Below are positions 444-30,114 of a stretch of DNA of 64,000 nucleotides, piece after piece (position 1 is the stretch's first letter; every line of letters begins with the position of its first letter). Made by a program: the position numbers and the translations under genes. The notes below the pieces were generated by a model. It saw only the letters and a list, made by a program, of their open reading frames with translations, was not told the DNA's origin and did not search any database. This DNA is from Gemmatimonadales bacterium UBA2988 (GTDB lineage: Bacteria; Gemmatimonadota; Gemmatimonadetes; Longimicrobiales; Gaopeijiaceae): assembly GCA_002346665.1 (NCBI GenBank), contig DEAG01000011.1:6589-70588 (forward strand), given 5' to 3'.

Positions 444-1483
444 GCGGACACTTCCTCCGGCGCGCCGTTAGCCGCTGATGAAGTGTAGACAGCGTCTACG
501 ATCCGCTGCACATGAATAGCCTGGTCCATGTCGATGTCACCGGGTCTTTCCATGCGCACGGCATCCAAGAATGCTGCGTCCTCACGGGTGTACTGCGGAC
601 CACCGATATCGATTTCCACGGGGCGATAGAGATCGACGGCGTTCCAGACATTCCACCCCGGGGAGAGCTCACCGAACCCTCGTTCCAGATATAGCCGAAC
701 GGTGTCATCCGTCACGATCAGGTTTCCGTCCACGCCCTGAAGCTCGATGGTAATCTCTACCATCCGCCTGAATCGTACCGACCAGGACGAATCAACCCAA
801 CCGGTGACACCGCTCGAAAACTCGAGAAAGATGTGGGCGAAATCCTCGACCTCCTGAGAATAGACGCTCTGTACGCGCCCGTTGACCCGAGCTACAGGCC
901 CCAGGTACCAGGTGAGGAGATCCAGCAAGTGGGATCCCTGACTGAGCAAGACTCCACCGCCCGACAAGGTCTTGTCATAACGCCATCCCTTGCCACGGCG
1001 AAAAAGCTGTGAAACGTAGATGGTTGCCGTCACGCGCTGGATCGGCCCGAGACATCCGGAGCGGACCAATTCGCGCCCCTTGACGAAGGAATCCACGTAC
1101 CGCGTCATGTAGCCGACCATGTGGGCCATGCGACGTTCACGAAGTTGCTGGACCAGTCCTTCTGCCTGCCCTGCGTCCGTGGTCAGCGGTTTTTCCACAA
1201 AAAACGGCAGCCTCTTATCCACGCACGCCATACACATCGGCACGTGTTGGTCCACGGGCGTAGCGATCACCACGGCGTCGAGCTCGGCAGAGCGGATCAT
1301 GTCCTCAGCGTCCGTGAACATTTCGACCGAGCCGGTCAACTCCCCCAGCGCCGAGCGAGCCCACTTGGAGGGATCTGCTGCCGCGACCACCCGACTCCCT
1401 CGCAAACCGTTGAGGATGCCCGCATGCACCAGGCCCATTTTCCCGAGACCCGCAATCCCCACCCTGATCTGCGGGTCAATCAT
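440..1483 (-). CDS. Gfo/Idh/MocA-family NAD(P)-dependent sugar oxidoreductase
   Basis: ORF 440..1546. N-terminal Rossmann motif IRVGIAGLGKMGLVHAGIL and FFVEKPL motif. Start trimmed to ATG 1483 (MIDPQIRVGIAG), which overlaps the upstream gene end by 8 nt rather than 70 nt. Confidence 0.8.
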   Translation of the reverse strand: MIDPQIRVGIAGLGKMGLVHAGILNGLRGSRVVAAADPSKWARSALGELTGSVEMFTDAEDMIRSAELDAVVIATPVDQHVPMCMACVDKRLPFFVEKPLTTDAGQAEGLVQQLRERRMAHMVGYMTRYVDSFVKGRELVRSGCLGPIQRVTATIYVSQLFRRGKGWRYDKTLSGGGVLLSQGSHLLDLLTWYLGPVARVNGRVQSVYSQEVEDFAHIFLEFSSGVTGWVDSSWSVRFRRMVEITIELQGVDGNLIVTDDTVRLYLERGFGELSPGWNVWNAVDLYRPVEIDIGGPQYTREDAAFLDAVRMERPGDIDMDQAIHVQRIVDAVYTSSAANGAPEEVSA

Positions 1484-2438
1484 GCTTCCACTCCTTGACC
1501 GACTCTGAACTGTCGCGAGGCCTAGCCGTGTAGTCGAGCCTGTCAACTCGCGATTTTATGTCTTTCGCCAACTGGACTGTGAACCCGAAGGAAAAGAGCT
1601 GAACCCCAACCATGACCAACAACGCGATGAGCACGAAGGATGGTAGACGCGTGAACATTTGCTTGACCTCGAATCCGGCCTGCCCGGCGATAAAAAAGAA
1701 ATACAGGACAGCGGCGGAAATAAGCCACAAACCCAACGTATAAAGCCAGCGAATGTGAACGCCGGACCGAACGAGCAATATCGGAAGGGTGTACATGATA
1801 TATTTCGGAATAGATCCCACGACGCGTGATTTTCCTTGTAGCCTAGGTCGCCAACTCGAAGGAACTTCGACAATACGAAATCCCTTCTCATGAGCGTCGA
1901 TGATAGACTCCTGCACGTATGTGTGTGTGCCTACGATGTCGAACTCTCGAACCACCTCCGGCCGCATCGCCCGAATACCACCGTGTGAGTCCGTGATGGG
2001 AAGTCCCGTGAACCCACGGAGGATTCGGGCGAGAATGCTCGTGCCGATCCGATTGATCCAGCGATAGGGGTATTTGACCAGGCTGGGTTCCACAAAGCGC
2101 GATCCAAGCACCAGGTCGGCCTCGTTGGCCGCCAGCGGGGCGAGAAACCTGCCGAGTTCCCCTGGATCTGACTGCCCGTCAGCATCCATGGAGACAATAA
2201 TCTCGGGATCAAAGGCCAGACTGGCTTTCCACCCACGCTGCATAGCATATCCGAGACCCTTCCCCCCACCGATCACGACGTGAACACCCATCCGGCTTGC
2301 GATCGACCGGGTGGCGTCATTGGAATCGTCGACAATGATTAGCACCGGGTCCCTGAGTCCCTCCTCAGCGAACGCACCCCGGATCTCGCTAATCACGGAC
2401 TCGATGGTTGCCTCCTCGTTAGCGGTCGGCAACACCAC
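1476..2438 (-). CDS. GT2 glycosyltransferase of polyprenyl-phosphate sugar synthase type (DPM1/GtrB/ArnC-like)
   Basis: VLPTANEEATIESVI, IIVDDSNDATR and SMDADGQSDP (GT-A fold with DxD), followed by C-terminal hydrophobic helices (LWLISAAVLYFFFIAG, FVLIALLVMVGVQLFSFGF). GTG start. Confidence 0.8.
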   Translation of the reverse strand: MVLPTANEEATIESVISEIRGAFAEEGLRDPVLIIVDDSNDATRSIASRMGVHVVIGGGKGLGYAMQRGWKASLAFDPEIIVSMDADGQSDPGELGRFLAPLAANEADLVLGSRFVEPSLVKYPYRWINRIGTSILARILRGFTGLPITDSHGGIRAMRPEVVREFDIVGTHTYVQESIIDAHEKGFRIVEVPSSWRPRLQGKSRVVGSIPKYIMYTLPILLVRSGVHIRWLYTLGLWLISAAVLYFFFIAGQAGFEVKQMFTRLPSFVLIALLVMVGVQLFSFGFTVQLAKDIKSRVDRLDYTARPRDSSESVKEWKHD

Positions 2439-3900: not shown

Positions 3901-5339
3901 GGTCTCTCACTCTCCTTCAGAGCAGGTTCCCCACCCACTCCCATTCGCCGTGCGGCAAGAACTCCCGCGAACAGCCAGAACGCTGAGTTCTCGACACTAA
4001 AAAGGTTGAATGCGCTGAAAAACGACAGGCAGAGGGTGGCAGGAATGTACGCTGCGCAGGCTAGGCCAAGGCCGCGGACGAACCTGTCTTGCCTGGAATG
4101 ATAAATACCCCAGGCCATACCCATGAGCGCCACCAGAAGCCAGCCATAAGCCACAAGCCCAAGCACTCCTTGATCTGTCAAAAGCTCGATAAAGTAGTTG
4201 TGGACATCATACGACCCCAAGAGTATTGCGCCCATCGGGCCGAATTCTCCGCTGTGCTGCGTGAAGATTCCACCTCCACCTCCGAACGGCACGACCCAGG
4301 TGTATTCTTGGATGAAATTCCAAGCGGCACCCCAGATGGCGACCCGGCCTGAGGTGTACTCGCTGATAACCGACCAATCAGAAGAAGCCACAGTCCCTAA
4401 CGTGAATACGCGGTCCCAGACGGTGGCGGGTAGCCAGAAGGGTGTGAGGATTAACCCCACTACCCCCACCCAAATAAGCTTGCGGTACTCGGTCAACGCC
4501 AATACAACGAGAGCTACAGCAGCAGCCAGGTAAGCGGCCCGGGTGAAGGAGTACAGGAGCGTTGCTATCGACGCCACCGATCCGGCTAGGATAAGCCCAC
4601 GAAGCCACTTTCTGGACGTATAGGTGAACGCGAACACCGCAAACGGAATAGCCAGGGCTACGACGCGGCCGTGACCGGCCAGCATGCCAAGCCTTGTCGT
4701 AATGGTGCGCGCTCCCATGTCCAGGGACACGCCACCGACTAAAGCACTGCCGAACACTAAGCTGCCGATACCGACCGTCGCGAGCAGGCTGTACAGTCCC
4801 CACCTAACCTCGCGATCGCGCATGGGGAGGTTCGTACCTACGAAGAAAAAGATCAGTGGCAGGAGCGGAATGGCAAAGTAGCCGAGAATGAAGGACCCCA
4901 GATCTCCCATGGGAGGGGAGCCAGGCCGCAGTCGAGCACGCACAATCGCGATCATCGCCAACAATAGGACGGCTATCATGGGCCCAAAAATGCGTCGGTC
5001 CCCGACCAGTGGCCTGTGCTCCTTCAGGGATCGCACGGCCGTTCCCACGAGGGCTCCGAATAGCAGAAGGATAAGGGGATCAAGGCCCGGGATGCCCAGC
5101 ATCCTGCCTGGAAGGAGACCGTGAAAGGGAGCGATGGCAACCAAGACCGGGAACGCCAGCGCCGGCAGCAACGGCATGGCAAAAGCTACAAAAACCGCGA
5201 CCAGGCCACTCAGGGCCATCACCACCGACCGCTCTGCGACAAGAGGAGGGACGACCATTCCCGCAATCAGGGCAGCGAGAAAGACCGCGGGCATGGTTCC
5301 CGAGGTCAATACGGGACGGTTAAGCGCCAGACGATTCAT
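3897..5339 (-). CDS. O-antigen ligase / Wzy-like polymerase family membrane protein
   Basis: About 11 hydrophobic helices and the family loop motif YDVHNYFIELLTDQGVLGLVAYGWLL. Start uncertain: ATG 5339 overlaps the upstream gene by 20 nt, and the alternative is MPAVFL at 5294. Confidence 0.7.
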   Translation of the reverse strand: MNRLALNRPVLTSGTMPAVFLAALIAGMVVPPLVAERSVVMALSGLVAVFVAFAMPLLPALAFPVLVAIAPFHGLLPGRMLGIPGLDPLILLLFGALVGTAVRSLKEHRPLVGDRRIFGPMIAVLLLAMIAIVRARLRPGSPPMGDLGSFILGYFAIPLLPLIFFFVGTNLPMRDREVRWGLYSLLATVGIGSLVFGSALVGGVSLDMGARTITTRLGMLAGHGRVVALAIPFAVFAFTYTSRKWLRGLILAGSVASIATLLYSFTRAAYLAAAVALVVLALTEYRKLIWVGVVGLILTPFWLPATVWDRVFTLGTVASSDWSVISEYTSGRVAIWGAAWNFIQEYTWVVPFGGGGGIFTQHSGEFGPMGAILLGSYDVHNYFIELLTDQGVLGLVAYGWLLVALMGMAWGIYHSRQDRFVRGLGLACAAYIPATLCLSFFSAFNLFSVENSAFWLFAGVLAARRMGVGGEPALKESERP

Positions 5340-7149
5340 CTCTAAGACGCTCCGTCGGGATCCCCGCAGGCGGCGTGATCCGATACACCTTCACTTCGGC
5401 CGACCGCGTCGGCCCATTTGGGACGGGGAATGTGGTAATTAGCTCCCAGCGCTCCTCGATCGCACTGTAGAATTGGTGGGAGCTTGGGAAGGCCTCCCGG
5501 CCTGTCGGAGTGAAGAACCGCGAATACCAGTGGCTGGACGTCACAAAATATTGATAACCTTCTCGCTCGAAGAACTCCGGATAGAGGGGAGTCACCATTG
5601 TGTTCCTGGACGCCATGGCGGCTGCAGATGTCGATTCGGCCTCCGAGGACTTCCAGGTCGGCTGATGAACCATGAGGAGATCATAGGTCTGTGTTCGGGA
5701 CCGCTCGGCTACTTCTATCATCAGACGACGGTAGGTCGAACGAGCATCTGCGATATACTCTTTCCCCAACATAGTCTTCTCGTGTTCACTCCTGGCCGAC
5801 TCTTCCCAGCGCGCCCTGAGGCTAGCTACCGTCGGCTTCAACTGAGGTCCGTAGTTGTCTACCGCGATGCGGGTACCTGGTGGGATATGATCCTCAATCC
5901 ACCTCTTAGCTACGTTCCGATTGTCCGGAGCGATGAAGGCGAGATTCGTCCACACAACGCTGGCCGCTGCCGGAGCGAGCACGATCAGCGCCACAAATGC
6001 TACTGTCGCGGTCTCCCCGATCCGCACGGGGATTCGCCGGATCCAGGTGGCCAAACTGTCTATCCCCACACCGACCAACAGGGCCAAGACCGGAGTGACA
6101 GGGAGGATATACCAGAACTTGGCCGCCGAACGCGACATCACGACAAAGTAGACGATCACCGCACCAAGCGTTACCCACCGTGCCCAGGTCGGTCGGAAGG
6201 CACAAGAAAGCAGGCCGACAAGGGCTGCCCCTGCCAACGTGGGACCGAACACCGCAGGATCAACTAGGTACCCACCGAACCGGAGCGCCCCAATCCCAAT
6301 AGTGCCTTCTGCAGAGATCTGTGTGGAATTGAACACGGTGTACATCAGATCACGAATGACGGCGTCCAATTCGAACAATAGATAGGGAAACCCGATCAGC
6401 AGGCCAGCAGCGAAGGCTCCCAGGGCCGCAGCCCCCGCTCCGGTCGCCCTCAACTTCCACGGCGGCAGCCGTTCCCTGACCAACCAGGCCACCCAGGCCA
6501 GAATCACGGCCCCCGCCCACAGGATCGCAGGAAACTTGGTTGCGGTCCCCAGCCCAACCCAGAGGCCGGCAAGAGCAAGGTGCCGGATCCTCCCCGAATC
6601 CAGAAAGCTGACCACGCTGATGAATACCAGAACGACAAAGAAGACCGCGGGTACGTCCGGCCGGGTATAGTGGGAGTACTCGGCGTGCAAGGGCAGGAAC
6701 GCTAGAGCCAGGCCGGACAGAAATCCCACCCTCCGAGAAAATAGCCGCTCGCCTAGGCGGTACGTCAGGACAACCGTAGCAGCTCCGACCAGAGCCTCGA
6801 GCCCGCGACCGGTCAGGTACACGGCACTGGGATCCGTCAAGTAGCTGACGGCGAACTCCGAGGCCCCCTGATAGACCCCCAGAAAAACTCCCAGAAGGTA
6901 AAGAACTCCGAAACCACCAAATAGCACGAAAGAGAATAGCGGCTGGTACTGGAAGGTCAGAGGAATGGGGTTCCCTGTACCCAGGGCCAGAGCGTTGTTC
7001 ACAAGGACGTGCTCAGCCGGTCCGTAGAGTGCTGGTAACCCGAATCCAATCCCCCAGAGGCGAAGGGCCAGGGCCACTCCTCCGAGCCCTACCATGATCC
7101 AGCGTCCATCACGCCGTACGGACGCAGACCGACTAATACCCATGTTCAT
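5320..7149 (-). CDS. GT-C fold membrane glycosyltransferase (PMT_2 / ArnT-like, GT39/GT83 type) with C-terminal soluble domain
   Basis: N-terminal LRLWGIGFGLP, many TM helices over about 400 aa, then a roughly 200-aa hydrophilic C-terminal domain. Start trimmed to ATG 7149 (ATGA overlap with the upstream stop). Confidence 0.65.
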   Translation of the reverse strand: MNMGISRSASVRRDGRWIMVGLGGVALALRLWGIGFGLPALYGPAEHVLVNNALALGTGNPIPLTFQYQPLFSFVLFGGFGVLYLLGVFLGVYQGASEFAVSYLTDPSAVYLTGRGLEALVGAATVVLTYRLGERLFSRRVGFLSGLALAFLPLHAEYSHYTRPDVPAVFFVVLVFISVVSFLDSGRIRHLALAGLWVGLGTATKFPAILWAGAVILAWVAWLVRERLPPWKLRATGAGAAALGAFAAGLLIGFPYLLFELDAVIRDLMYTVFNSTQISAEGTIGIGALRFGGYLVDPAVFGPTLAGAALVGLLSCAFRPTWARWVTLGAVIVYFVVMSRSAAKFWYILPVTPVLALLVGVGIDSLATWIRRIPVRIGETATVAFVALIVLAPAAASVVWTNLAFIAPDNRNVAKRWIEDHIPPGTRIAVDNYGPQLKPTVASLRARWEESARSEHEKTMLGKEYIADARSTYRRLMIEVAERSRTQTYDLLMVHQPTWKSSEAESTSAAAMASRNTMVTPLYPEFFEREGYQYFVTSSHWYSRFFTPTGREAFPSSHQFYSAIEERWELITTFPVPNGPTRSAEVKVYRITPPAGIPTERLRDESSGA

Positions 7150-11120: not shown

Positions 11121-11162
11121 GCTACCCGCGACGAACTGAACCCCTCACCTCAACACCTCGCC

Positions 11163-12047
11163 CTAGGGTCGGCGTACGGCAACATCATCGGCAGCCCTCC
11201 GGTTGACCAGATCTGCGAGGAGCCCGATCGCCAGTACGTGAATGCCTCCCATAATCAACAACACGGAGAGTTCGGCCACGTTCTGGTTCTGCACAATATC
11301 GAACGCCAGTTTGGCAGCCCCGACCACGAACAGGACTATGCTGATCGGGAAAAACACCTTCAGCGGGTTCACATATATGACCATACGAACGATCTGGAAG
11401 AGAAGGCGCTTGGTGTCGAGAATCGGGTGAATCTTTGATTTTCCGAACCTCTTGTGATAATCGATCGGCACATACTCTACGCCTGCTCCCGACTGCATCA
11501 TGGCTAGAGTAATGGTCGTGCTGAAGGAGAACCCCGAGGGGAGCAATCTAAACAACCGCAGAGCGTCCTCTCTATGAAAAACCCGTAGTCCCGAGTTCAG
11601 ATCCGGGATCTTCGCATCCGCCAGGTAATTGGCCAACCGGAGCAGCAATAGCTTGGGAAGTCTACGGAGAAACGGGATGTTGACGTTAGCGCCTATCCTG
11701 GCTCCGACCACCATGGCGACGCCGTCAAGCTTGGCGAGAAGAGTCGGGATTACGTCACACGGATAGGTCCCATCCGCGTCGATCGTGACGATCACGTTTG
11801 AACGCGCGATACGAATCCCAGTCTTCAGAGCCTCGCCGTAGCCGCGACGGAAGGAATGCTGGTAGAGCGTGACCCCAGACTCCCTGGCTATCTCCGCCGT
11901 TCGGTCTGTCGAGGAATCGTCGACGACCACGATCTCGAAGCGGTGGGGAGTGTCGGCCATGGCAGCCTTAACATCTGCCAGAACCTGGCCGATACCAGCT
12001 TCCTCATTGTGGGCGGGAACGACGATGGTGACGTCCTTTTGCATCAC
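11163..12047 (-). CDS. GT2 polyprenyl-phosphate glycosyltransferase (GtrB/ArnC-like)
   Basis: VTIVVPAHNEEAGIGQVL, IVVVDDSSTDRTAEIA and TIDADGTYP, plus two C-terminal TM helices (FFPISIVLFVVGAAKLAF, VLLIMGGIHVLAIGLLADLV). Confidence 0.85.
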   Translation of the reverse strand: MMQKDVTIVVPAHNEEAGIGQVLADVKAAMADTPHRFEIVVVDDSSTDRTAEIARESGVTLYQHSFRRGYGEALKTGIRIARSNVIVTIDADGTYPCDVIPTLLAKLDGVAMVVGARIGANVNIPFLRRLPKLLLLRLANYLADAKIPDLNSGLRVFHREDALRLFRLLPSGFSFSTTITLAMMQSGAGVEYVPIDYHKRFGKSKIHPILDTKRLLFQIVRMVIYVNPLKVFFPISIVLFVVGAAKLAFDIVQNQNVAELSVLLIMGGIHVLAIGLLADLVNRRAADDVAVRRP

Positions 12048-12072: not shown

Positions 12073-13287
12073 TCAGTCGCTAATCACTTCGTGCAGGACC
12101 TCCAACAAATAGTCTATATCCTGGGGGGCCAGATACTGGTGGCAACCAACATAGAACCCATTGCCGTTTACCCAATCTGCTACCGGATAGTCGTCCACGT
12201 CGATCTGAAACAGGCGTTGATAAACCGGCTGGTTCAAGAGCGGCAGCATGTCCCGAGTCTCTACGCCACGCTTCTCAAGTCCATTCACTACTCTGGACTT
12301 CTCCTCATCACGAAGGACAATGGGGTACATCATGAATGCGTGATCACACCCCGGTCGTATCCGCGGAAGCTGGATGCGATCCTCCAAGTCACGGAGGCCG
12401 TCCGTGATCCGAGCGGCGTTGGCTGCCCTCTGCTGAATCGCGACCTCAATCTTCTCCAGCTGTGCCAGCCCAAGCGCCGCTTCGAGTTCGGTCGCCCGAT
12501 AGCTGTAGCCTACGGAATTGAACCTGAAGCGCCGGGCAACAATATCCTGAAGCTCTTGGTCCGACACGTCATCGTCATCGTCAATTGAGAGGTAGCTGGG
12601 GTCCCGACCATGATTGAGTAGCGAGCGAATCTTGACCATGTAGTCGTAGTTCGAGGTCGTATTCAGCCCCCCCACACCAGTAACCAGCAAATGTGCTATA
12701 TAGGTCGAAAAACAACCTATGTCACCCATGCTGCCCACCGGCTCACCACGGTAGCGGGCAAACATCGTCTCACAGGAATCCTCTATGACCTTGAGGTCAT
12801 ATCTAGCAGCAACATCGCGGATCGGATCCATCTCACAGGGCAAGCCGAAGAGATGCACAGGTATTATCGCACGTGTCCGGGTGGTGATCTTACCTTCGAG
12901 CAGAGCTGGATCCAACTCGTAATACTCTCGCTCGACGTCTACGAAGACCGGCTTCATCTGGTTATGGATAACTATGTTGGACGTAGCAACGAACGTGACT
13001 GCCGGCACCACGACCTCATCGCCGTCCGACCAACCGTGGATCTCCTTGAGAGCGTGGAGGGCAAGCTGCAGTGCGCTCGTTCCACTGTTGCTCATGACCC
13101 CGTGCGCCGCCCCTTGCATCTCAGCGAAGCGTTGCTCGAACTCGCGCATGAACGGTCCATAAGACAATCGGCCAGTGTCCAGAACCCGGCCGACGTATTC
13201 CCTCTCTGCCTCGCCGATCTCGATACCACCAACGCAGATTTTAGGCTGGCCCTCGGATACGACGCTCTCTTCCTGCCTATCCCCCAA
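12073..13287 (-). CDS. DegT/DnrJ/EryC1/StrS-family PLP-dependent sugar aminotransferase
   Basis: GAAHGVMSNSGTSALQLAL, VVVPAVTFVATSN and the typical fold-type I layout, 404 aa. Confidence 0.85.
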   Translation of the reverse strand: MGDRQEESVVSEGQPKICVGGIEIGEAEREYVGRVLDTGRLSYGPFMREFEQRFAEMQGAAHGVMSNSGTSALQLALHALKEIHGWSDGDEVVVPAVTFVATSNIVIHNQMKPVFVDVEREYYELDPALLEGKITTRTRAIIPVHLFGLPCEMDPIRDVAARYDLKVIEDSCETMFARYRGEPVGSMGDIGCFSTYIAHLLVTGVGGLNTTSNYDYMVKIRSLLNHGRDPSYLSIDDDDDVSDQELQDIVARRFRFNSVGYSYRATELEAALGLAQLEKIEVAIQQRAANAARITDGLRDLEDRIQLPRIRPGCDHAFMMYPIVLRDEEKSRVVNGLEKRGVETRDMLPLLNQPVYQRLFQIDVDDYPVADWVNGNGFYVGCHQYLAPQDIDYLLEVLHEVISD

Positions 13288-13382: not shown

Positions 13383-14798
13383 CTACACTGCCAGCGCCGG
13401 CTTCACCGCTTCAGCTTGGAATAGCCTTCGATACATAGCTGACTGAAACAGAAGATCGGGGTCATAGCGTTGCTTGAGTGCCTCGAATTCTCTCCAACGA
13501 GGGAACATCTGCTGGAAATGGTCGACGGTCAACATTTCGTCTTTCGCCAAATATGATCGGCCGCCAGCTTCAAGCACCAGTTCGGTCATTCTGTAGAACA
13601 ATTCTGCCTCCTCGGCCTTCCCGCCGGCGTTCAGGGGAAGATCAATCCCGATCGAACAACCGTCGACCGAATAGCTCAGCATAGACTCGTCCGCCCGGTG
13701 GCTCTTAATCGCTGTCAGATGCGACGGCCGTCCGTTCTGCTGCGTCAGCTCGATGAGCTTTCGCATCGTCCGAGCGCATGAATCAAAAGGGATGACAGGC
13801 TCGAGCTCGAGATAGCCGCGCGGCGTAAAGAGGACTCGCCAATTCGGTATCATATCCAGAAGAAAGGTGAACTCGAAGTAATTCTGGACATAGGGACTGC
13901 GTCTCGTGCTGACTTTGTCGGTATGGAATTTCACAGTATTGACCGCGCTCATGAGCGTGTTCCCGAAGAACGGCTTGAGCATCGGCCACACCCAAGTACG
14001 GGGGAAAACCCCGAGAATGTAAGGGGAGATGTATCCTAGGATCTCACTTTTGGCACTCCGCGACGGCCTCTCAATGAAGCGACTCGTATGAATAGTACCC
14101 CGACCGAGATCAGCCCCCCGAGAGAAGCAATCCACCCACCCAATGTGGAAATCCGTCGTTGACCGAACTGCCTCGAAATCCTCCAGCATGCTCTCCAGGT
14201 TGGGCACGGTCCACTTGCTTACTTCCAGGTATGGGGACGGGATCCGCTTGCACTGCAGAACGATCTCGAGGAATATGCCTAGCAAACCCAGACCGCCAAT
14301 GGCGGCGAAAAATAGCTCCTGGTTCTCAGTCCGACTGCATTGGTATACCCGCCCATTACCAGCCAGCAGTTTGAACGCCACGACAGAGTCGCCGAGATTC
14401 CCCTCGTTCCACGCATTCTTGCCGTGGACGTTGTTTGCCACTGCACCGCCCAACGTTGGGTGTCGGATTCCGGGAACGGACGAGACCACCCAGTTGTCCT
14501 GCAGACAAACCTGTAGTGCCTGCTCGAATGTCACCCCCGGCTCTACTGTCATTTGACCGGTAGCCGGATCCCAGGCAAGGATCCGATTCATGTGGGTGAG
14601 GTCGATGACGACCCCGTCGGGGTTCAGGATGACGTCTCCGTAGCTGTATCCGGCCCCGCGCAAAGTCACGGAAAGGCTACGTCGACGCGCTTCCTCCAGA
14701 ACCAGGTCTATTTCCGCCCGACTCGATACCCTCGCCACATATGACAAGGCATGGGACGTCAATGTCCACCCTGAGGTCCGCTCGTAGCTAAGCACCAA
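13383..14798 (-). CDS. FAD-linked oxidase, DprE1-like (polyprenyl-phospho-sugar 2'-oxidase family)
   Basis: LRGAGYSYGD, GGAVANNVHGKN, LFFAAIGGLGLLGI and a C-terminal GGRSYLAKDEMLT...DPDLLFQSAMYRRL all parallel DprE1 blocks. Start trimmed to TTG 14798 or GTG 14795, just inside the upstream stop (14788). Confidence 0.7.
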   Translation of the reverse strand: MVLSYERTSGWTLTSHALSYVARVSSRAEIDLVLEEARRRSLSVTLRGAGYSYGDVILNPDGVVIDLTHMNRILAWDPATGQMTVEPGVTFEQALQVCLQDNWVVSSVPGIRHPTLGGAVANNVHGKNAWNEGNLGDSVVAFKLLAGNGRVYQCSRTENQELFFAAIGGLGLLGIFLEIVLQCKRIPSPYLEVSKWTVPNLESMLEDFEAVRSTTDFHIGWVDCFSRGADLGRGTIHTSRFIERPSRSAKSEILGYISPYILGVFPRTWVWPMLKPFFGNTLMSAVNTVKFHTDKVSTRRSPYVQNYFEFTFLLDMIPNWRVLFTPRGYLELEPVIPFDSCARTMRKLIELTQQNGRPSHLTAIKSHRADESMLSYSVDGCSIGIDLPLNAGGKAEEAELFYRMTELVLEAGGRSYLAKDEMLTVDHFQQMFPRWREFEALKQRYDPDLLFQSAMYRRLFQAEAVKPALAV

Positions 14799-15681
14799 CC
14801 ATCCTGAGGAAGTTTCGGCCCAAGATGCCCTCCCGTTCTCTATCGGTAATCTTGAGCCGCTCGATCCATCCCTTAATAACACCGTAGTCATAGACGCCGG
14901 TAGCACTCGAGAAGCCATAGGGACTATCGGTGCCGTAGAAACATTTCTCGGGACCTACTGCCGCAACAGCGATCCGCACAAAGCGCTCGCTAAGATGCGG
15001 ACTCGAGAGATCGATGTAGGCGTTCGCATGATCACGGACGAGAGGCCACATCTCCTTGAAAAAGGGCATGCCCGCGTGAGCAAAAATGATGCGCAGCCGT
15101 GGGTAGGTCTCTGCGAGCCACTGATACGCCCCCTGCGCCCCGAACCCCAAGTGAATCAGCAATGGCAATCCCAACTCCTCGGCACGCTGCGCAATCCCCG
15201 ACAACTCTCTCATAGGGTAATGATGCCAATAGGGATGCACCTTAACACCGATCATGCCCGGCACCGCCCTCCAGCGTTCCAAGTCCTCGATCACGTTGGG
15301 GTTGTCTCTCGGAGTCAGGAATATCCAGCCCCAGAACCGCTCCGGCATCTTCTCCAAGGCCGCGGCCACACTCTCGTTGTCCGGTTCAGTGGACTTGATG
15401 TACCCTTGTCGCCCTTGGGTGAACGGGCGCCACAAGGGACGGAGCGCGCCGTACTCATCGTAGAACGTTGTGCTCACGGCAGCGGCCGCCGGCCGAAGCA
15501 GCGAAGAGTTCATCATTGTGCGCTGCACAGCCAGAAGCACCGCAGATTTCTCCGGCTCCACCGTCTCTGTGATCCTGGGAATGAGCACGACCCTGTCGAT
15601 GCCTTCCTCGTCCATTTTACCGGACAGCATCTCCAGGCTGAGAACTCGCTCGTCAAGATGGGCGTGACAGTCAACTACCAT
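14788..15681 (-). CDS. amidohydrolase-superfamily metal-dependent hydrolase (TIM barrel)
   Basis: N-terminal VVDCHAHL, then FAHAGMP and YGTDSPY, a metal-ligand pattern typical of amidohydrolase_2-like proteins. Confidence 0.7.
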   Translation of the reverse strand: MVVDCHAHLDERVLSLEMLSGKMDEEGIDRVVLIPRITETVEPEKSAVLLAVQRTMMNSSLLRPAAAAVSTTFYDEYGALRPLWRPFTQGRQGYIKSTEPDNESVAAALEKMPERFWGWIFLTPRDNPNVIEDLERWRAVPGMIGVKVHPYWHHYPMRELSGIAQRAEELGLPLLIHLGFGAQGAYQWLAETYPRLRIIFAHAGMPFFKEMWPLVRDHANAYIDLSSPHLSERFVRIAVAAVGPEKCFYGTDSPYGFSSATGVYDYGVIKGWIERLKITDREREGILGRNFLRMVGA

Positions 15682-15724
15682 ATATCACCTCGGAATCGGG
15701 AGTCCGATCGCACACTCGATCACC

Positions 15725-16474
15725 TTACTCGTCTTTGTCCGTAAATGCCCCAGCCACAATCCGTGAAAAAATAGCATCGGGCAGGATCCGCATGGCCTCG
15801 AGTATAAGTCGGAGCAGGCGTGGCATGGTGACGCTAAGCGCACGCCGGTCGACGGCGGCAAGAATGCGGTACACCGCCTGTTCACTCGTCAGTCTGAACC
15901 AGCTCGATGACCCTGAACCCATCCCCGTATCCACTGCCCCGAGATGAATGGTAGTGAACGTGATGCCATCTCGGCTGTATCTCCCTCTGAGAGCCTCAAA
16001 AGCTCGAGTGAGAGCTGCTTTGCTGGCACAATATGCAATCCACCGCGCGTCACCTCGAAACGCCGCGAGGGAAGAGATTGCAACGAAGTGCCCCGCTCCT
16101 CGCTCCCGAAAGTTGGACATGAATATGTCCACCCACCTCATGGCTCCGAAGAGGTTTACCCGGACCACCTCCTCAAATCCGTCGCTTGTGAACGGACTGC
16201 CAAGGCGCTCCGGGTTGATTCCGGCGTTCAGAATAACCACGTCGGGGCGGAATCCGGACTCCTCCATCCTCGCCGCAGTGGAGCGCACCTGCTCATCTTG
16301 CTCCACGTCGCAAACGGAAAAGGAGAAACAGTCCTTGCCAAGGGTCTTCTGCAACTCTAGCAGATGGTCTTCTCGGCGAGCGATACCCCACACTCGGTGC
16401 CCGCGCCGAACGAGCTCCCGCACCATTCCGCGCCCAATTCCCGAAGAGACCCCCGTAACGAAATAGCTTGGCAC
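15725..16474 (-). CDS. short-chain dehydrogenase/reductase, DprE2-like
   Basis: VTGVSSGIGRG (TGxxxGxG), YCASKAAL (YxxxK) and the tail MRILPDAIFSRI resembling the DprE2 C-terminus. Start trimmed to GTG 16474, preceded by GGAGAAAGGAAATC. Confidence 0.7.
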   Translation of the reverse strand: MPSYFVTGVSSGIGRGMVRELVRRGHRVWGIARREDHLLELQKTLGKDCFSFSVCDVEQDEQVRSTAARMEESGFRPDVVILNAGINPERLGSPFTSDGFEEVVRVNLFGAMRWVDIFMSNFRERGAGHFVAISSLAAFRGDARWIAYCASKAALTRAFEALRGRYSRDGITFTTIHLGAVDTGMGSGSSSWFRLTSEQAVYRILAAVDRRALSVTMPRLLRLILEAMRILPDAIFSRIVAGAFTDKDE

Positions 16475-16544
16475 GATTTCCTTTCTCCGGATCAACCCTA
16501 CTGATCTAGCCCCATTATAGTTAGCCAAGTAGTTCTCAAGAACA

Positions 16545-17300
16545 TTACCTCGCAGACGTATCGGGCGAAGCCAACACCCTGACCGCCATGCGCTGCACAC
16601 GCCGCAGGAATATATGGAACAGTGTGTTGGCTACTGAGAGAAGGTTTGGGATCGTAAAGGCCTTCGAGGCCCCGCGTTCCCGATCACTGTTAGCTACTTG
16701 CACTTCCACCACGGAAATGCCTTCGTCCAAAAGTCGGCACAGCAACTCTGCCTGATAGCCAAATCCTGCGGTCTCCGCAAACCACATCCGAACGTTGTCA
16801 GTCTTGTGCAAAACCGGCCCGTTGTAGTACCGGATATCATGACCACTCAACAGGTTCACTAGGAACGTAAACGTTAGGCTGAGAATTCTGCGTGGAATGG
16901 TCCTGGTCTCGCTGAGGCCGAAGTACGGTACGACAGCGTCGGCCTCACCGACGTGGGAAAGGATCGAAGCAATGGCCTCGGAGGGCTCAGCTGCGTCGCC
17001 GTTGACGAGCATGAAGTTCTCGCAGGATGCGCGCTGTGCAGCGATGAAGTAGTTCCTACCCAGACCTCGGCAAAAACGATTCCTGATCAAGTTTAGCCGC
17101 ACGTCTGGATAGCGCTCGATACGCCCAAGAACCTCCCGCACAGTACCGTCACTCGATGCATCGTCAACAACGATGATTTCGTACGGAAAGCGCAAGTCGC
17201 GCATTACCTGGACGATGTTGTCAACCGTAAGACCCACATTACGCTCCTCGTTTAAACAAGGAACGAAGAGGGTGACGGATTCTTCTTCCACTTCTCGCAT
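16545..17300 (-). CDS. GT2 glycosyltransferase, polyprenyl-phosphate sugar synthase-like, no C-terminal TM
   Basis: VTLFVPCLNEERNVGLTV, IIVVDDASSDGTV and VNGDAAEP. Start trimmed to ATG 17300 (MREVEEES), 8 nt after the upstream stop. Confidence 0.8.
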   Translation of the reverse strand: MREVEEESVTLFVPCLNEERNVGLTVDNIVQVMRDLRFPYEIIVVDDASSDGTVREVLGRIERYPDVRLNLIRNRFCRGLGRNYFIAAQRASCENFMLVNGDAAEPSEAIASILSHVGEADAVVPYFGLSETRTIPRRILSLTFTFLVNLLSGHDIRYYNGPVLHKTDNVRMWFAETAGFGYQAELLCRLLDEGISVVEVQVANSDRERGASKAFTIPNLLSVANTLFHIFLRRVQRMAVRVLASPDTSAR

Positions 17301-17307
17301 AGCCACC

Positions 17308-17802
17308 TTAACCAGCCAGGCCGTCGCCCATCGTACGGCCCAGGAACCTCGCCCAACGAGCCATACGTACACCTTTAACCGTCAGATCGACACGGTCCTT
17401 TGAGACTAGCAAGAGTCCACTTTCACCCATGAGCCGAAGGCGATCCTCGAAGCGCGAAGATGAGGTGTATTCATCTAAAAGCGTTCCGAAAACAACGGTG
17501 TGTCCAGGCTCGACAAGTAGTCTCGCTACAAGAGTCAAGGATACCGACCGGGCAACACCCGCATAGACGAATAGATAGAGCACCACCAGTAAGAAATCGA
17601 TCGACACCACCGCAAAGATCTCGGGAAGGAGGCCGCCCACCAGTAGCACTGTGAACAGTGAAATCACCACACCCATCGCTGCCATACCACTCAGAAGTCC
17701 GATTCGCGGAGATCCTGAGGGTAAAATCCGCCAGACCGCGACATGGGTGATGAAGAAGATCCCCATTCCGGTAGTCACCGACAAAGCGATATCGACGCTC
17801 AT
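17308..17802 (-). CDS. small membrane protein: 3 predicted TM helices plus a C-terminal winged-helix-like domain (paralog A)
   Basis: Hydrophobic helices at about residues 5-25, 34-56 and 59-82, then RSVSLTLVARLL...GLLLVSKDRVDLTVKG. AGGAA 5 nt upstream of the ATG. Confidence 0.6.
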   Translation of the reverse strand: MSVDIALSVTTGMGIFFITHVAVWRILPSGSPRIGLLSGMAAMGVVISLFTVLLVGGLLPEIFAVVSIDFLLVVLYLFVYAGVARSVSLTLVARLLVEPGHTVVFGTLLDEYTSSSRFEDRLRLMGESGLLLVSKDRVDLTVKGVRMARWARFLGRTMGDGLAG

Positions 17803-17809
17803 GAGGTTC

Positions 17810-18370
17810 CTACCCGACCACCTCTAGACGGAGGAGCCTTCGCATCCCGTAACCTACGTGGGCCACGAGCCTGCCAACCGAGGTGAGTGGCCCGATTTGA
17901 TCAGCAGTGCACCGTATCAGACCAATTCGCTCCAGTCCCTCTATACGCTTGGAAAGTAGCCCCCTAACACCCATGCCTTCGCCATAGCCAGACTTCAGGT
18001 CCTCAAAACCAGCTCCGCCATCTAGCTCGAGAAGATCGACGAGGATTCTCAGCGAATACCCTCGTGAGAGCAACGATCGAACTTCCACGTACACCAGCCA
18101 ACCGGCTGCGTACAAAGCGACAACACCAGTCCTCAAACTGACCAATTCATCCCCCGGCCAGCCCATCTGAGCTGTGGCTTCCCAAAGGACACCGACACCG
18201 ATGACGCCGAACACGAGGAGAGACGCAGCGGCCGGGCCGGGACCATTGACACGTAAGGTACGATTCATCAGCACCTGCCATCCCCGCTGTAATGCTATGA
18301 CCCCGATCAAGGTCGCTAGAACAACGAACGGGGTCACCACCATACGCGCCAACTCTGTGAGCTGAATCAC
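17810..18370 (-). CDS. small membrane protein: 3 predicted TM helices plus a C-terminal winged-helix-like domain (paralog B)
   Basis: Same architecture as 17308..17802: RGYSLRILVDLLEL...IEGLERIGLIRCTADQIGPLTSVG. GTGA overlap with the upstream ADH stop. Confidence 0.6.
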   Translation of the reverse strand: MIQLTELARMVVTPFVVLATLIGVIALQRGWQVLMNRTLRVNGPGPAAASLLVFGVIGVGVLWEATAQMGWPGDELVSLRTGVVALYAAGWLVYVEVRSLLSRGYSLRILVDLLELDGGAGFEDLKSGYGEGMGVRGLLSKRIEGLERIGLIRCTADQIGPLTSVGRLVAHVGYGMRRLLRLEVVG

Positions 18371-19434
18371 GGGGAATCATCGGTCATGCATATCAGCCCA
18401 CGCCCTACCCCTCCCGACTCGAGATTCTCAAGGCCGCGGTTGACGTCGTCGAGGGAGTACTCGTGGGTGACAAGCTGTTCCGCCCTGAGCTTCCCGGCGA
18501 GGCACAGTTCCGCATATCGCGGAATGTCCCGGTCCGGAACGGTCTCCCCTCCCCACGTCCCCACAATTCTCTTCCCTCTGATCAGCTCCATGGGGTCAAG
18601 AGACAGCATTTCTCCGAAGGGCAGATTACCCGCGATCACGCACAGTCCGCCGTTCTCTCGAACACAGCGGAAAGCCAATGCCATGCTCGACTGCTTGCCC
18701 GCTGCCTCGATCGAGTAATCTACCCCGCGACCATGTGTGACTTCGAGGATGCTCGCCAACGGGTCCTGGGCCCGGGCGTTCACCACGTGGGTAGCACCGG
18801 CCCGGCGTGCCAGTTCGAGCTTATGATCCAGCACGTCAACCGCGATCACTTGGGATGCATCCGAGAGGGCAGCGGCGAGGACAGCACTCAGCCCGATTCC
18901 TCCCACTCCAAAGATGGCTACGCTATTTCCTTCTGCGACTTGGGCGGTGTTGAAAACAACGCCAGCGCCTGTGGGAAACGCACAGCCCAGGAGGGCCCCT
19001 TCACGCAATGGGACATCGTCCGGAATCCGCGTGACCCGATTCTCGCAGGTGACGGTTTGGAGCATGAAGGTGCTCATAGCCCCCGAGTTTATGGACCCCT
19101 CATCACTCCCGTAAACGGTGGATGGCACGTCAGCGCCGTTACCCTTGATCCACGACAGCACCACGCGATCCCCCGGTTTGACTTTCCCGACACCTGGACC
19201 GGTCTCTAGAACCGTTCCCGAGCCTTCGTGTCCGAGAGTATGTGGGAGGAACCGGTCCTCGCCTCGCTTGCCACGGGCCTCGAGTAGTTGCGTATGGCAG
19301 ATTCCACTGTATGCGATGTCGACAATAAGCTGGCCCGGCTTTAGCGGGGGAGTCGAGAGCTGAATAACGCGTAACGGCTCACCCAGTTCGAAAAGGACAG
19401 CGGCTTGTGTTTCCACAGTTAACGGCGGCTCCAT
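18367..19434 (-). CDS. zinc-type medium-chain alcohol dehydrogenase
   Basis: GICHTQL, GHEGSGTV and GVGGIGLSAV (NAD fold). Start trimmed to ATG 19434 (MEPPLTVETQAAVL). Confidence 0.8.
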   Translation of the reverse strand: MEPPLTVETQAAVLFELGEPLRVIQLSTPPLKPGQLIVDIAYSGICHTQLLEARGKRGEDRFLPHTLGHEGSGTVLETGPGVGKVKPGDRVVLSWIKGNGADVPSTVYGSDEGSINSGAMSTFMLQTVTCENRVTRIPDDVPLREGALLGCAFPTGAGVVFNTAQVAEGNSVAIFGVGGIGLSAVLAAALSDASQVIAVDVLDHKLELARRAGATHVVNARAQDPLASILEVTHGRGVDYSIEAAGKQSSMALAFRCVRENGGLCVIAGNLPFGEMLSLDPMELIRGKRIVGTWGGETVPDRDIPRYAELCLAGKLRAEQLVTHEYSLDDVNRGLENLESGGVGRGLICMTDDSP

Positions 19435-25884: not shown

Positions 25885-25902
25885 CGGACTCCGTTTTCCG
25901 AG

Positions 25903-26880: not shown

Positions 26881-26881
26881 G

Positions 26882-30082: not shown

Positions 30083-30114
30083 GCATCCCGCGGTTTATCT
30101 GGATTGTCAGCTAT

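What the first reader, a model, noticed from the sequence alone, without database searches (positions are those of the whole stretch)
13383..17300. DprE1/DprE2-like oxidase-reductase pair next to a polyprenyl-P sugar synthase, with a GT-C downstream: a lipid-linked sugar epimerisation route lacking the classical phosphoribosyltransferase
Seen:
- The FAD oxidase 13383..14798 shares block-by-block similarity with M. tuberculosis DprE1 as I recall it: LRGAGYSYGD vs RGLGRSYGD, GGAVANNVHGKN vs GGAIACDIHGKN, and GGRSYLAKDEMLT...DPDLLFQSAMYRRL vs GGRLYTAKDSRTT...DPLRVFASDMARRL.
- The 250-aa SDR 15725..16474 ends in MRILPDAIFSRI, like the DprE2 tail.
- An amidohydrolase (14788..15681) sits between them.
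- A soluble GT2 of DPM1/ArnC type (16545..17300) is immediately upstream.
- A GT-C enzyme lies at 5320..7149, and two more GtrB/ArnC-type GT2s lie at 11163..12047 and 1476..2438.

Established:
- DprE1/DprE2 epimerise decaprenyl-P-ribose to decaprenyl-P-arabinose.
- GT-C enzymes use polyprenyl-P sugars on the outer face of the membrane.

No UbiA-like phosphoribosyltransferase is visible in the window.

Inference: a polyprenyl-P-hexose or pentose made by the GT2 is oxidised and reduced to a rare epimer and then added periplasmically. The interposed amidohydrolase suggests an extra, undescribed step.
Basis: partly seen in the sequence, partly recalled or inferred. Interest (0 to 1): 0.65.

Follow-up and report, generated by a model that had tools for sequence, protein, structure and literature searches.

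The report
Lipid-linked sugar editing gene module
A marine bacterium carries a conserved gene set that probably loads a sugar onto the membrane carrier lipid with an ordinary glycosyltransferase and then remodels it there with relatives of the tuberculosis drug-target enzymes DprE1 and DprE2 plus an extra metal enzyme; this route has not been described before, and here it is only inferred from sequence.

Summary
14795..13383 (-) encodes a full-length DprE1-family flavoenzyme. It scores 258 bits on the NCBIfam DprE1 model against 118 for the next family, and E 2e-50 to DprE1 crystal structures against 1e-12 for the next. 16474..15725 encodes a divergent DprE2-family SDR, shown through intermediates rather than directly. 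15681..14788 is a PF04909 enzyme. 17300..16545 is a GT2 without membrane helices whose sequence profile and predicted fold match only polyprenyl-phosphate glycosyltransferases (DPMS, ArnC, GtrB).

In 77 of 85 informative loci from many phyla, a DprE2-family SDR lies next to the oxidase. In the window's own clade (8 loci, 46-66% identity), GT2, two small membrane proteins, SDR, PF04909 enzyme and oxidase always occur together, in shuffled order. GT2::oxidase and SDR::PF04909 fusions exist. BacA or DedA (carrier-lipid recycling) sit beside the GT2 in two loci. No UbiA-type phosphoribosyltransferase was found in the window or in any locus.

The "amidohydrolase" is structurally closest to decarboxylases, hydratases and C-C hydrolases, not to deacylases.

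Best reading (confidence about 0.55): a GT2-made polyprenyl-P sugar is oxidised, processed by the metalloenzyme and reduced before a polytopic transferase uses it. The sugar, the chemistry and the final acceptor are unknown. I rate it a new variant of a known kind.

The parts
13383..14795 (-). DprE1-family FAD oxidase (470 aa, GTG start)
   Evidence: NCBIfam DprE1 model 258 bits, E 1.9e-76, full length; cutoff 500; next family 118 bits. PDB DprE1 E 2e-50 against 1e-12 for GLDH. Equivalents of Lys418 and of the His132-Gly-Lys134 motif are invariant in the family alignment. The BTZ-target Cys aligns with Gly.
14788..15681 (-). PF04909 (Amidohydro_2) metal-dependent enzyme, 297 aa; its stop overlaps the oxidase start by 8 nt
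   Evidence: Pfam E 2.8e-30. HxH, His149, His177, His202 and Asp252 are present in the sequence. AlphaFold model pLDDT 97. Fold neighbours: 3cjp (uncharacterised), LigJ hydratase, 2,6-DHB decarboxylase, LigY, ACMSD, IDCase. Found only in the 8 loci of the window's clade. SDR::PF04909 fusions P0372 and P0388 exist.
15725..16474 (-). DprE2-subfamily short-chain reductase, 249 aa, with a C-terminal amphipathic tail
   Evidence: Best NCBIfam hits are PRK07024, PRK08251 and PRK07102, the same neighbourhood as DprE2. 32% identity, E 3e-32, full length, to an oxidase-adjacent SDR from Chlorobiota. 149 bits on the profile of oxidase-adjacent SDRs, which scores Mtb DprE2 132 bits. The direct match to DprE2 is weak.
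16545..17300 (-). GT2 of the polyprenyl-phosphate glycosyltransferase class, 251 aa, without membrane helices
   Evidence: Profile against PDB: DPMS 5mlz E 2.4e-19 over the whole catalytic domain, then ArnC and GtrB. AlphaFold model pLDDT 91. The first 11 structural hits, and 22 of the first 23, are ArnC, DPMS or GtrB, TM-score about 0.7. JGI names three homologs 'dolichol-phosphate mannosyltransferase'. Closest paralog in the window is the Dpm1/AglJ-like GT2 at 11163..12044.
17308..17802 (-). Small membrane protein 'TMb' (164 aa): about 3 membrane helices plus a soluble C-terminal domain; no Pfam family
   Evidence: No Pfam or NCBIfam hit. Orthologs lie next to the GT2 in L004, L091, L095 and L096 (E 3e-42 to 4e-9), with a weak match in L090 (E 1e-4). 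L094 carries a second small membrane protein that was not matched to TMb.
17810..18370 (-). Small membrane protein 'TMa' (186 aa), paralog of TMb; no Pfam family
   Evidence: No Pfam or NCBIfam hit. Orthologs in L004, L091, L095, L096 and L094. L090 carries two small membrane proteins in the same position, one only weakly matched to TMb. Weak cross-hit to TMb-type proteins.
18367..19416 (-). Zn-dependent medium-chain alcohol dehydrogenase (349 aa). Adjacent or near in six module loci and absent from the trio-less Ferrovibrio locus. Possible member of the module
   Evidence: Pfam ADH_N and ADH_zinc_N. Present in the window/L001, L004, L090, L091, L094 and L095. Absent in L096.
5320..7149 (-). 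GT-C (PMT/PMT_2) polytopic glycosyltransferase; candidate but unproven user of the lipid-linked product
   Evidence: Pfam PMT and PMT_2; 10 predicted membrane helices. Not conserved with the module. Other loci have unrelated polytopic proteins after the oxidase.

Best explanation
The stretch 18370..13383 (-) is a conserved module for making and editing a carrier-lipid-linked sugar.

Proposed steps:
1. The GT2, which has no membrane helices, transfers a sugar from a nucleotide sugar to polyprenyl (undecaprenyl-type) phosphate. It is probably held at the membrane by the two small membrane proteins TMa and TMb. The upstream genes (HldE-like, GmhA-like, 4,6-dehydratase-like, aminotransferases, methyltransferase) would supply the nucleotide sugar.
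2. The DprE1-family flavoenzyme oxidises a secondary hydroxyl of the lipid-linked sugar to a ketone.
3. The PF04909 metalloenzyme acts on that activated keto intermediate. Enolisation-dependent chemistry is expected, such as decarboxylation, dehydration/hydration, C-C cleavage or epimerisation next to the carbonyl.
4. The DprE2-family SDR reduces the ketone with NAD(P)H.
5. The edited lipid-linked sugar is then used by a polytopic (GT-C-like) transferase outside the cytoplasm.

Shown here: the family assignments, the co-conservation, the fusions, and the absence of a nearby PRPP-dependent transferase.

Inferred: the lipid acceptor, the order of steps, the position oxidised, the PF04909 reaction, the sugar, and the final transferase.
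For: Oxidase:
- It is DprE1-family with the catalytic Lys and the His-Gly-Lys motif conserved.

SDR:
- It is DprE2-subfamily by transitive profile evidence.
- A DprE2-family SDR lies within 2.5 kb on the same strand in 77 of 89 non-redundant oxidase loci. Four more are cut off by the contig end.

GT2:
- It is a polyprenyl-phosphate glycosyltransferase by profile and by predicted fold.

Co-conservation and fusions:
- The window's clade has 8 loci at 46-66% oxidase identity, and all carry GT2, SDR, PF04909 enzyme and oxidase. Order differs: L007 has SDR-PF04909-GT2-oxidase, and L094 is split into divergent operons.
- A GT2::oxidase fusion exists, P0032.
- SDR::PF04909 fusions exist, P0372 and P0388.
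- In the CPR clade the oxidase sits between PMT_2 GT-Cs, membrane-helix-less GT2s and GtrA.

Carrier-lipid link:
- BacA (Und-PP phosphatase) lies in the L094 module.
- DedA lies beside GT2-TMa-TMb in Ferrovibrio.

Accessory nature of the trio:
- Ferrovibrio has the sugar pathway plus GT2-TMa-TMb without SDR, PF04909 enzyme or oxidase. The trio therefore behaves as an add-on editing unit.

Other:
- No UbiA-like protein is present in the window or the loci.
- A polytopic membrane protein follows the oxidase in 5 loci.
- Gene spacing is tight or overlapping, and no intergenic terminator was found.
Against: - Nothing is biochemical.
- The oxidase (258 against a cutoff of 500) and the SDR (below about 75 against 250) fall well short of the equivalog cutoffs, so the substrates are unknown.
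- In the GT2, the Asp of the D-x-x-SG(F/L)R motif aligns with Tyr, and DXD is NGD. This departs from typical Dpm1/GtrB enzymes.
- The GT2::oxidase fusion lies in a sister clade (41% identity) that lacks the SDR, not in the window's own clade.
- The rest of the genome could not be checked for a PRPP-dependent transferase.
- The downstream polytopic proteins are not homologous to each other, so the final transferase is not established.
- Most SDR-oxidase pairs in other phyla sit among housekeeping genes with no glycan genes nearby.
- The PF04909 neighbours give no specific reaction.
Confidence: 0.55

Rival explanations
1. This is the classical arabinofuranose route. The oxidase and SDR are functional DprE1/DprE2 acting on polyprenyl-P-ribofuranose made by a UbiA-type phosphoribosyltransferase encoded elsewhere in the genome. 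The neighbouring GT2 makes an unrelated lipid-linked sugar.
For: DprE1 is by far the best-scoring family for the oxidase. JGI labels many homologs 'decaprenylphospho-beta-D-ribofuranose 2-oxidase'. DprE1/E2 homologs with a PPPRS are known in Gram-negative Araf systems (PMC11127046). Only 64 kb of the genome was visible.
Against: No UbiA-like gene in the window, in the 8 clade loci or in about 80 family loci. Scores are far below the equivalog cutoffs. The oxidase is tightly co-conserved with a GT2, TMa, TMb and a PF04909 enzyme that the DPR-to-DPA route does not need. A GT2::oxidase fusion exists.
Confidence: 0.15
2. This is a soluble-substrate pathway. The flavoenzyme oxidises a free or nucleotide-linked sugar, alditol or lactone. 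The PF04909 enzyme is a lactonase or decarboxylase and the SDR a dehydrogenase in nucleotide-sugar tailoring. The GT2 then simply uses the finished donor.
For: Pfam ALO (D-arabinono-1,4-lactone oxidase) domain hit, E 3e-11. From general knowledge, PF04909 includes sugar lactonases. The module sits inside a long nucleotide-sugar tailoring operon.
Against: The ALO and lactone-oxidase models score much lower than DprE1 (44-118 against 258 bits). No lactonase appears among the listed top 50 fold neighbours of the PF04909 model. The GT2::oxidase fusion and the CPR context with GT-C and GtrA point to a lipid-linked substrate. Ferrovibrio keeps the whole nucleotide-sugar pathway and the GT2 without the trio.
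Confidence: 0.2
3. These are merely neighbours. The genes are independent parts of a large variable glycan island and do not form a pathway unit.
For: The window is a glycan island of more than 60 kb with many unrelated enzymes. Genes flanking the module differ between loci.
Against: The same six genes recur in 8 loci at 46-66% identity with rearranged order. Two kinds of gene fusion exist. The PF04909 stop and oxidase start overlap.
Confidence: 0.05

Closest known systems
Mycobacterial DprE1/DprE2 (decaprenyl-P-ribose to decaprenyl-P-arabinose 2'-epimerisation) and its Gram-negative Araf counterparts with a PPPRS (PMC11127046)
   Same: An FAD oxidase of the same family with the catalytic Lys and His-Gly-Lys motif conserved. 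A partner SDR of the same subfamily with the same C-terminal tail. The two genes are adjacent. The context includes GT-C-type transferases.
   Different: About 30% identity to DprE1 and about 21% to DprE2, with both below the equivalog cutoffs. Gene order is SDR then oxidase. No UbiA/PPPRS or 5'-phosphatase is nearby. A GT2 polyprenyl-P glycosyltransferase is co-conserved instead. An extra PF04909 enzyme lies between the two. The BTZ-target Cys is Gly.
Three-component periplasmic glycosylation systems (GtrB/GtrA/Gtr*; ArnC/ArnD/ArnEF/ArnT; FlmF2/NaxD/FlmK)
   Same: A GT2 polyprenyl-P glycosyltransferase makes a monosaccharide-P-lipid. That lipid can be edited on the carrier (ArnD deformylase, NaxD deacetylase) and is then used by a GT-C.
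   Different: The editing here would be redox chemistry (flavin oxidase plus SDR) together with an ACMSD-type metalloenzyme, not deacylation. The GT2 lacks its own membrane helices and is accompanied by two novel small membrane proteins. No recognisable GtrA or SMR flippase is in the module.
Human-type DPM synthase (DPM1 catalytic subunit without a membrane helix, plus the small membrane subunits DPM2 and DPM3)
   Same: The catalytic GT2 lacks a membrane anchor and is encoded with two small membrane proteins.
   Different: There is no sequence similarity between TMa/TMb and DPM2/DPM3. This is an analogy only and was not tested.
ACMSD-related branch of PF04909 (ACMSD, gamma-resorcylate decarboxylase, IDCase, LigW, LigJ, LigY)
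   Same: The same fold, with the metal-ligand set present (HxH, His, His, Asp).
   Different: TM-scores are only about 0.6 and identity 12-17%. All known members act on aromatic or dicarboxylate small molecules, and none on a sugar or a lipid-linked substrate.

Membership tests
DprE1 (decaprenylphosphoryl-beta-D-ribose 2'-oxidase) | Full-length match to the curated DprE1 model at or above its equivalog cutoff | tested here: not met
   NF053785: 258 bits, positions 4-447 of 449, cutoff 500. Family relatives score 245-291. A homolog, not an equivalog.
DprE1 (decaprenylphosphoryl-beta-D-ribose 2'-oxidase) | Closer to DprE1 than to any other VAO/PCMH flavoenzyme family | tested here: met
   Next NCBIfam family scores 118 bits. 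PDB DprE1 E 2e-50 against GLDH 1e-12.
DprE1 (decaprenylphosphoryl-beta-D-ribose 2'-oxidase) | Catalytic Lys418 and the His132-Gly-Lys134 motif | tested here: met
   AKD and HGK align with DprE1 and are invariant in 24 family members.
DprE1 (decaprenylphosphoryl-beta-D-ribose 2'-oxidase) | Substrate is polyprenyl-P-ribofuranose supplied by a UbiA-type PPPRS | tested here: inconclusive
   No UbiA-like protein in the window or the loci. The rest of the genome is not available.
DprE2 (2'-keto reductase partner) | Match to the curated DprE2 model at or above its cutoff | tested here: not met
   Not among the top 25 families, so below about 75 bits against a cutoff of 250. BLASTP to Mtb DprE2: 21% identity, E 0.02.
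DprE2 (2'-keto reductase partner) | Same SDR subfamily, with the C-terminal tail, and adjacent to a DprE1-family oxidase | tested here: met
   The profile of oxidase-adjacent SDRs scores the window SDR 149 bits and Mtb DprE2 132 bits. DprE2 hits only those SDRs among 1129 ORFs. Adjacency holds in 77 of 85 informative loci.
Polyprenyl-phosphate glycosyltransferases (Dpm1/GtrB/ArnC class of GT2) | GT-A catalytic domain plus interface helices, matching DPMS/GtrB/ArnC over the full length | tested here: met
   Profile to 5mlz E 2.4e-19 over positions 5-214, and ArnC 9hwj over 7-213. Other GT2s match only the N-terminal half. The first 11 Foldseek hits, and 22 of the first 23, are ArnC, DPMS or GtrB, TM-score 0.57-0.74.
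Polyprenyl-phosphate glycosyltransferases (Dpm1/GtrB/ArnC class of GT2) | Canonical DXD motif and the Asp of the D-x-x-SG(F/L)R acceptor-side motif | tested here: not met
   DXD reads NGD, with only the last Asp kept. The acceptor-side Asp aligns with Tyr in 'YYNGP'.
Polyprenyl-phosphate glycosyltransferases (Dpm1/GtrB/ArnC class of GT2) | Transfers a sugar to polyprenyl phosphate | not testable with these tools
   Only context is available: BacA and DedA neighbours and a GT-C nearby.
PF04909 / ACMSD-related metalloenzymes | Pfam match above the gathering score, TIM-barrel fold, metal ligands | tested here: met
   106.5 bits against a cutoff of 26.4. Model pLDDT 97. Fold neighbours as listed. 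HxH, H149, H177, H202 and D252 are present in the sequence.

The most novel reading that the evidence does not exclude
A previously undescribed kind of carrier-lipid-level sugar editing may exist. A GT2-made polyprenyl-P sugar (possibly heptose-derived) would be oxidised by a DprE1-type flavoenzyme and transformed by an ACMSD-fold metalloenzyme, by decarboxylation, dehydration, C-C cleavage or alpha-epimerisation. A DprE2-type SDR would then re-reduce it, creating a donor sugar that never exists as a nucleotide sugar. Sister clades would use the same oxidase with an aminotransferase to make lipid-linked amino sugars. If so, the many DprE1/DprE2-like pairs annotated as 'DPR oxidase' in Chloroflexota, Armatimonadota, Planctomycetota, CPR and other phyla are not arabinose enzymes. 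They would be a general lipid-linked keto-sugar toolkit independent of PRPP.
Probability: 0.35. Interest if true: 0.8.

Novelty: new variant of a known kind. Interest (0 to 1): 0.62.

Why it matters
Redox editing of a sugar after it is attached to the carrier lipid is known only for ribofuranose derived from PRPP. DprE1/E2 convert it to arabinofuranose, and an SDR converts it to xylofuranose (PMC11127046).

A GT2-fed version with an extra metalloenzyme step would widen the set of sugars that can be made on the lipid. It would explain thousands of probably mis-annotated 'DPR oxidase' genes outside the Actinobacteria. It would also add parts (oxidase, PF04909 enzyme, reductase, a membrane-helix-less GT2 with two helper proteins) for glycoengineering.

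It also bears on how specific DprE1-targeted chemistry is. The covalent-inhibitor cysteine is absent in this oxidase.

Tried and rejected
The 470-aa GTG-start product is the one on record.
- The metagenome scan with the single protein returned only 3 distant or irrelevant loci.
- Source names for SDR homologs never say DprE2, and direct BLASTP to DprE2 is weak. The DprE2 link had to be shown through intermediates. The Mtb DprE2 sequence was written from memory. It was accepted only after it scored 426.7 bits on the curated DprE2 model, cutoff 250.
- I considered TMa+TMb as a split UbiA and rejected it. Each has about 3 helices plus a soluble domain, and neither has a Pfam or NCBIfam hit.
- I considered the PF04909 enzyme as a deacylase (ArnD/NaxD analog) or a lactonase and found it unsupported. 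Its fold neighbours are decarboxylases, hydratases and C-C hydrolases.
- The unbiased clustering of neighbours in 80 genome loci found only housekeeping families apart from the SDR.
- The downstream polytopic proteins could not be aligned with each other or with the window's GT-C.
- Literature searches found no description of a GT2-fed DprE1-like system. The library is incomplete, so this is not proof of absence.
- Promoter and terminator scans were uninformative.
- The organism could not be named. The nearest named relative is a Nitrospinota MAG at 66% oxidase identity.

Full report
**Observation**

All genes of the finding lie on the minus strand and are real ORFs. The same gene calls are found on public contigs that carry the identical oxidase. 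These include a 108-kb Logan contig of SRR5321872 and a Tara Oceans assembly, ERZ976865, so the window comes from a marine metagenome. The oxidase most likely starts at the GTG at 14795 (470 aa), because only that product is on record.

In transcription order, window coordinates, the local genes are:
- Zn-ADH, 19416-18367
- TMa, 18370-17810
- TMb, 17802-17308
- GT2, 17300-16545
- SDR, 16474-15725
- PF04909 enzyme, 15681-14788
- oxidase, 14795-13383
- DegT aminotransferase, 13287-12073
- Dpm1/AglJ-like GT2, 12044-11163
- GT4
- methyltransferase
- sulfatase-like protein
- PMT_2 GT-C, 7149-5320
- Wzy_C, 5339-3897

Intergenic gaps run from -8 to 95 nt. No intergenic terminator-like site was found, and the number of sites is below the shuffle expectation.

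**The oxidase**

It matches the curated DprE1 model over its whole length (258 bits, E 1.9e-76). The next family scores 118 bits, and the equivalog cutoff is 500. Against solved structures, DprE1 entries score E about 2e-50, while the next family (galactonolactone dehydrogenase) scores 1e-12.

Identity to M. smegmatis DprE1 is 29.5% over 464 columns. The AKD lysine (Lys418 in M. tuberculosis numbering) and the HGK motif are invariant in a 24-member family alignment. The cysteine that benzothiazinones attack aligns with glycine.

This is therefore a DprE1-family enzyme, not a lactone, alditol or cytokinin oxidase. It is not an equivalog of DprE1. The whole environmental family scores 245-291 bits on that model.

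**The SDR**

Directly, it is a weak DprE2 match:
- None of the listed homologs that carry a source name is called DprE2.
- The DprE2 model is not among its 25 best NCBIfam families, so it scores below about 75 bits against a cutoff of 250.
- BLASTP to M. tuberculosis DprE2 gives 21% identity, E 0.02, although the alignment runs into the shared C-terminal tail.

I wrote the DprE2 sequence from memory. I accepted it only after it scored 426.7 bits on the curated DprE2 model.

The link is clear through intermediates:
- The SDR next to a Chlorobiota oxidase is 32% identical to the window SDR over the full length (E 3e-32). It scores 127.7 bits on the DprE2 model.
- A profile of 53 oxidase-adjacent SDRs from outside the window's clade scores the window SDR 149 bits and DprE2 132 bits.
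- DprE2 used as a query against 1129 ORFs of the loci hits exactly the 58 oxidase-adjacent SDRs and nothing else.

**Co-conservation**

A genome scan returned 80 loci from Chloroflexota, Armatimonadota, Planctomycetota, Sumerlaeota, Chlorobiota/Kapaibacteria, Leptospira, Binatia, CPR and others. In a six-frame recount of 89 non-redundant oxidase loci:
- 77 have a DprE2-family SDR within 2.5 kb on the same strand.
- 4 are cut off by the contig end.
- 8 lack the SDR.

In those distant loci the other neighbours are housekeeping genes.

The window's own clade has 46-66% oxidase identity. It comprises the window/L001, L004, L007 (a Nitrospinota MAG), L090, L091, L092, L094 and L095. This clade is different:
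- Every locus carries the membrane-helix-less GT2, the SDR, the PF04909 enzyme and the oxidase. In L092 the GT2 and the PF04909 gene look fragmented.
- A pair of small membrane proteins accompanies the GT2 wherever upstream DNA is available: window, L004, L090, L091, L094, L095 and L096. Sequence matches to the L090 and L094 copies are weak or partial.
- Usually a Zn-ADH, a methyltransferase and NDP-sugar epimerase/dehydratases are present too.
- Gene order is not fixed. L007 has SDR-PF04909-GT2-oxidase. L091 has TMa and TMb further upstream. L094 splits the set into two divergent operons and adds BacA, the undecaprenyl-diphosphate phosphatase.

The PF04909 gene occurs only in this clade.

**Fusions**

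- P0032 is a GT2 fused to the N-terminus of an oxidase. It is 41% identical to the window oxidase and belongs to the CPR-like clade.
- P0372 and P0388 are an SDR fused to a PF04909 domain that is 36% identical to the window's (E 2e-70).

**The GT2**

- A profile of six module GT2s finds P. furiosus dolichyl-phosphate mannose synthase best (E 2.4e-19, covering the whole catalytic domain), then ArnC and GtrB. Other GT2s match only the nucleotide-binding half.
- An AlphaFold model (pLDDT 91) has ArnC, DPMS or GtrB as its first 11 PDB neighbours and as 22 of its first 23. The one exception is the membrane mannosyltransferase PcManGT at rank 12. TM-scores are about 0.7 and rmsd about 3 Å.
- JGI names three homologs 'dolichol-phosphate mannosyltransferase'.
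- The protein lacks the C-terminal membrane helices of those enzymes.
- It deviates in two motifs: NGD for DXD, and Tyr for the acceptor-side Asp.

TMa and TMb (about 3 helices plus a soluble domain, no Pfam family) accompany it everywhere. That includes a Ferrovibrio genome, where the same nucleotide-sugar genes, a DedA-family protein, GT2, TMa and TMb occur without SDR, PF04909 enzyme or oxidase. The trio thus behaves as an accessory editing unit added to a GT2 lipid-sugar system.

**The 'amidohydrolase'**

It is PF04909, with all metal ligands present. Only 54 representative clusters in 1.84 billion proteins match it at E ≤ 1e-30, so the subfamily is small. The model is very confident (pLDDT 97).

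Its neighbours are an uncharacterised Clostridium protein, LigJ hydratase, 2,6-dihydroxybenzoate decarboxylase, LigY C-C hydrolase, ACMSD, IDCase and LigW, with TM-scores of about 0.6 (sequence profile). No deacylase or lactonase is among the listed top 50. The extra step is therefore more likely carbon-skeleton or enolisation chemistry on the keto intermediate than removal of an acyl group. Which reaction it is cannot be told.

**No phosphoribosyltransferase**

The 64-kb window holds only four proteins with four or more predicted helices. They are Wzy_C, PMT_2, Wzx and Wzy_C. No UbiA-sized polytopic protein lies near the oxidase in any locus. The rest of the genome is not available.

**What is known**

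Kelly et al. (PMC11127046) describe three-component systems. In these a PRPP-dependent synthase makes undecaprenyl-P-ribofuranose. An SDR then converts it to Xylf, or DprE1/E2 homologs convert it to Araf, and a GT-C uses the product. The authors state they know of no other epimerases in such side-chain systems. GT2-made Und-P sugars are known to be edited only by deacylation (ArnD and NaxD; general knowledge). I found no paper describing a DprE1-type oxidase fed by a GT2.

**Interpretation**

The most economical reading is as follows. A polyprenyl-P sugar is made by GT2 with TMa and TMb. It is oxidised by the DprE1-type enzyme, processed by the PF04909 enzyme and reduced by the DprE2-type SDR. 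A polytopic transferase then consumes it. That transferase would be a variable, unalignable membrane protein directly after the oxidase in five loci, or possibly the PMT_2 GT-C further downstream in the window.

The sugar is unknown. The upstream genes hint at a heptose-derived, amino, methylated or branched sugar, but all score below the family cutoffs. They are:
- an HldE-like protein with swapped domain order
- GmhA-like SIS protein
- PDH-E1-like pair
- two DegT aminotransferases
- 4,6-dehydratase-like and reductase-like SDRs
- methyltransferase
- NUDIX hydrolase
- HpnJ-like B12 radical-SAM enzyme

I put about 0.55 on this lipid-level editing model. The rivals are 0.15 for a classical Araf route with a distant PPPRS, 0.2 for a soluble-substrate pathway, and 0.05 for mere neighbours.

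**Verdict**

This is a new variant of a known kind, of real but still purely computational interest.

Noticed in passing
L005 8001-10829; also L009 and L010 (CPR/Patescibacteria); P0032/L093: A sister clade of the oxidase has no SDR. A class-III aminotransferase (476 aa) follows the oxidase, flanked by two PMT_2 GT-Cs, membrane-helix-less GT2s and GtrA. The GT2::oxidase fusion belongs to this clade, and its upstream gene is HldE-like. This suggests lipid-linked keto-sugar to amino-sugar conversion.
   Followed up: partly
window 33573-35069 (-); L091 1067-2668; L094 3135-4571: A B12-binding radical-SAM enzyme most like hopanoid HpnJ (368.7 bits, cutoff 577.6) lies upstream in the window. It sits inside or beside the module in two other loci, so it may belong to the same pathway.
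   Followed up: partly
window 24826-31164 (-): A pathway resembling heptose-nucleotide synthesis: an HldE-like bifunctional protein with swapped domain order (28553-30082), GmhA-like SIS protein (27895-28494), epimerases, and a PDH-E1-like alpha/beta pair (25903-26880 and 24826-25884). The pair could add a two-carbon branch. The same set recurs in L095 and in Ferrovibrio (L096).
   Followed up: partly
L096 (Ferrovibrio sp., OZ260071.1) 9242-11811: A Ferrovibrio genome assembly (a 4.4-Mb contig; whether MAG or isolate is not stated) carries DedA + GT2 + TMa + TMb with the same sugar genes but lacks SDR, PF04909 enzyme and oxidase. If a cultured strain carries the same locus, it would be a natural comparison strain.
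   Followed up: partly
P0372, P0388 (not in the window): In the SDR::PF04909 fusion proteins, the HxH motif reads HxY and the 'AHAG' histidine is lost. That sub-branch may bind metal differently or not at all.
   Followed up: no
window about 36000: A step in G+C content: 0.54-0.60 below about 36 kb and 0.60-0.65 above. The 36.6-43.8 kb stretch holds a NusG-like protein, a DAO-type oxidase, SecA and BamD/YfiO. A second glycan cluster follows (Gmd, fucose-synthase-like protein, UGDH, Wzi, two RCC1-repeat proteins, Wzx, Wzc-like kinase, Wzy). The lower-GC cluster that holds the finding may be an acquired island.
   Followed up: no
window 13383-14795 (-): The cysteine of DprE1 that covalent benzothiazinone inhibitors attack aligns with glycine in this oxidase.
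   Followed up: partly
window 12073-13287 (-): A DegT-type sugar aminotransferase directly follows the oxidase in the window only, not in the other seven module loci. It could be a lineage-specific branch from the keto intermediate, or it could be unrelated.
   Followed up: no
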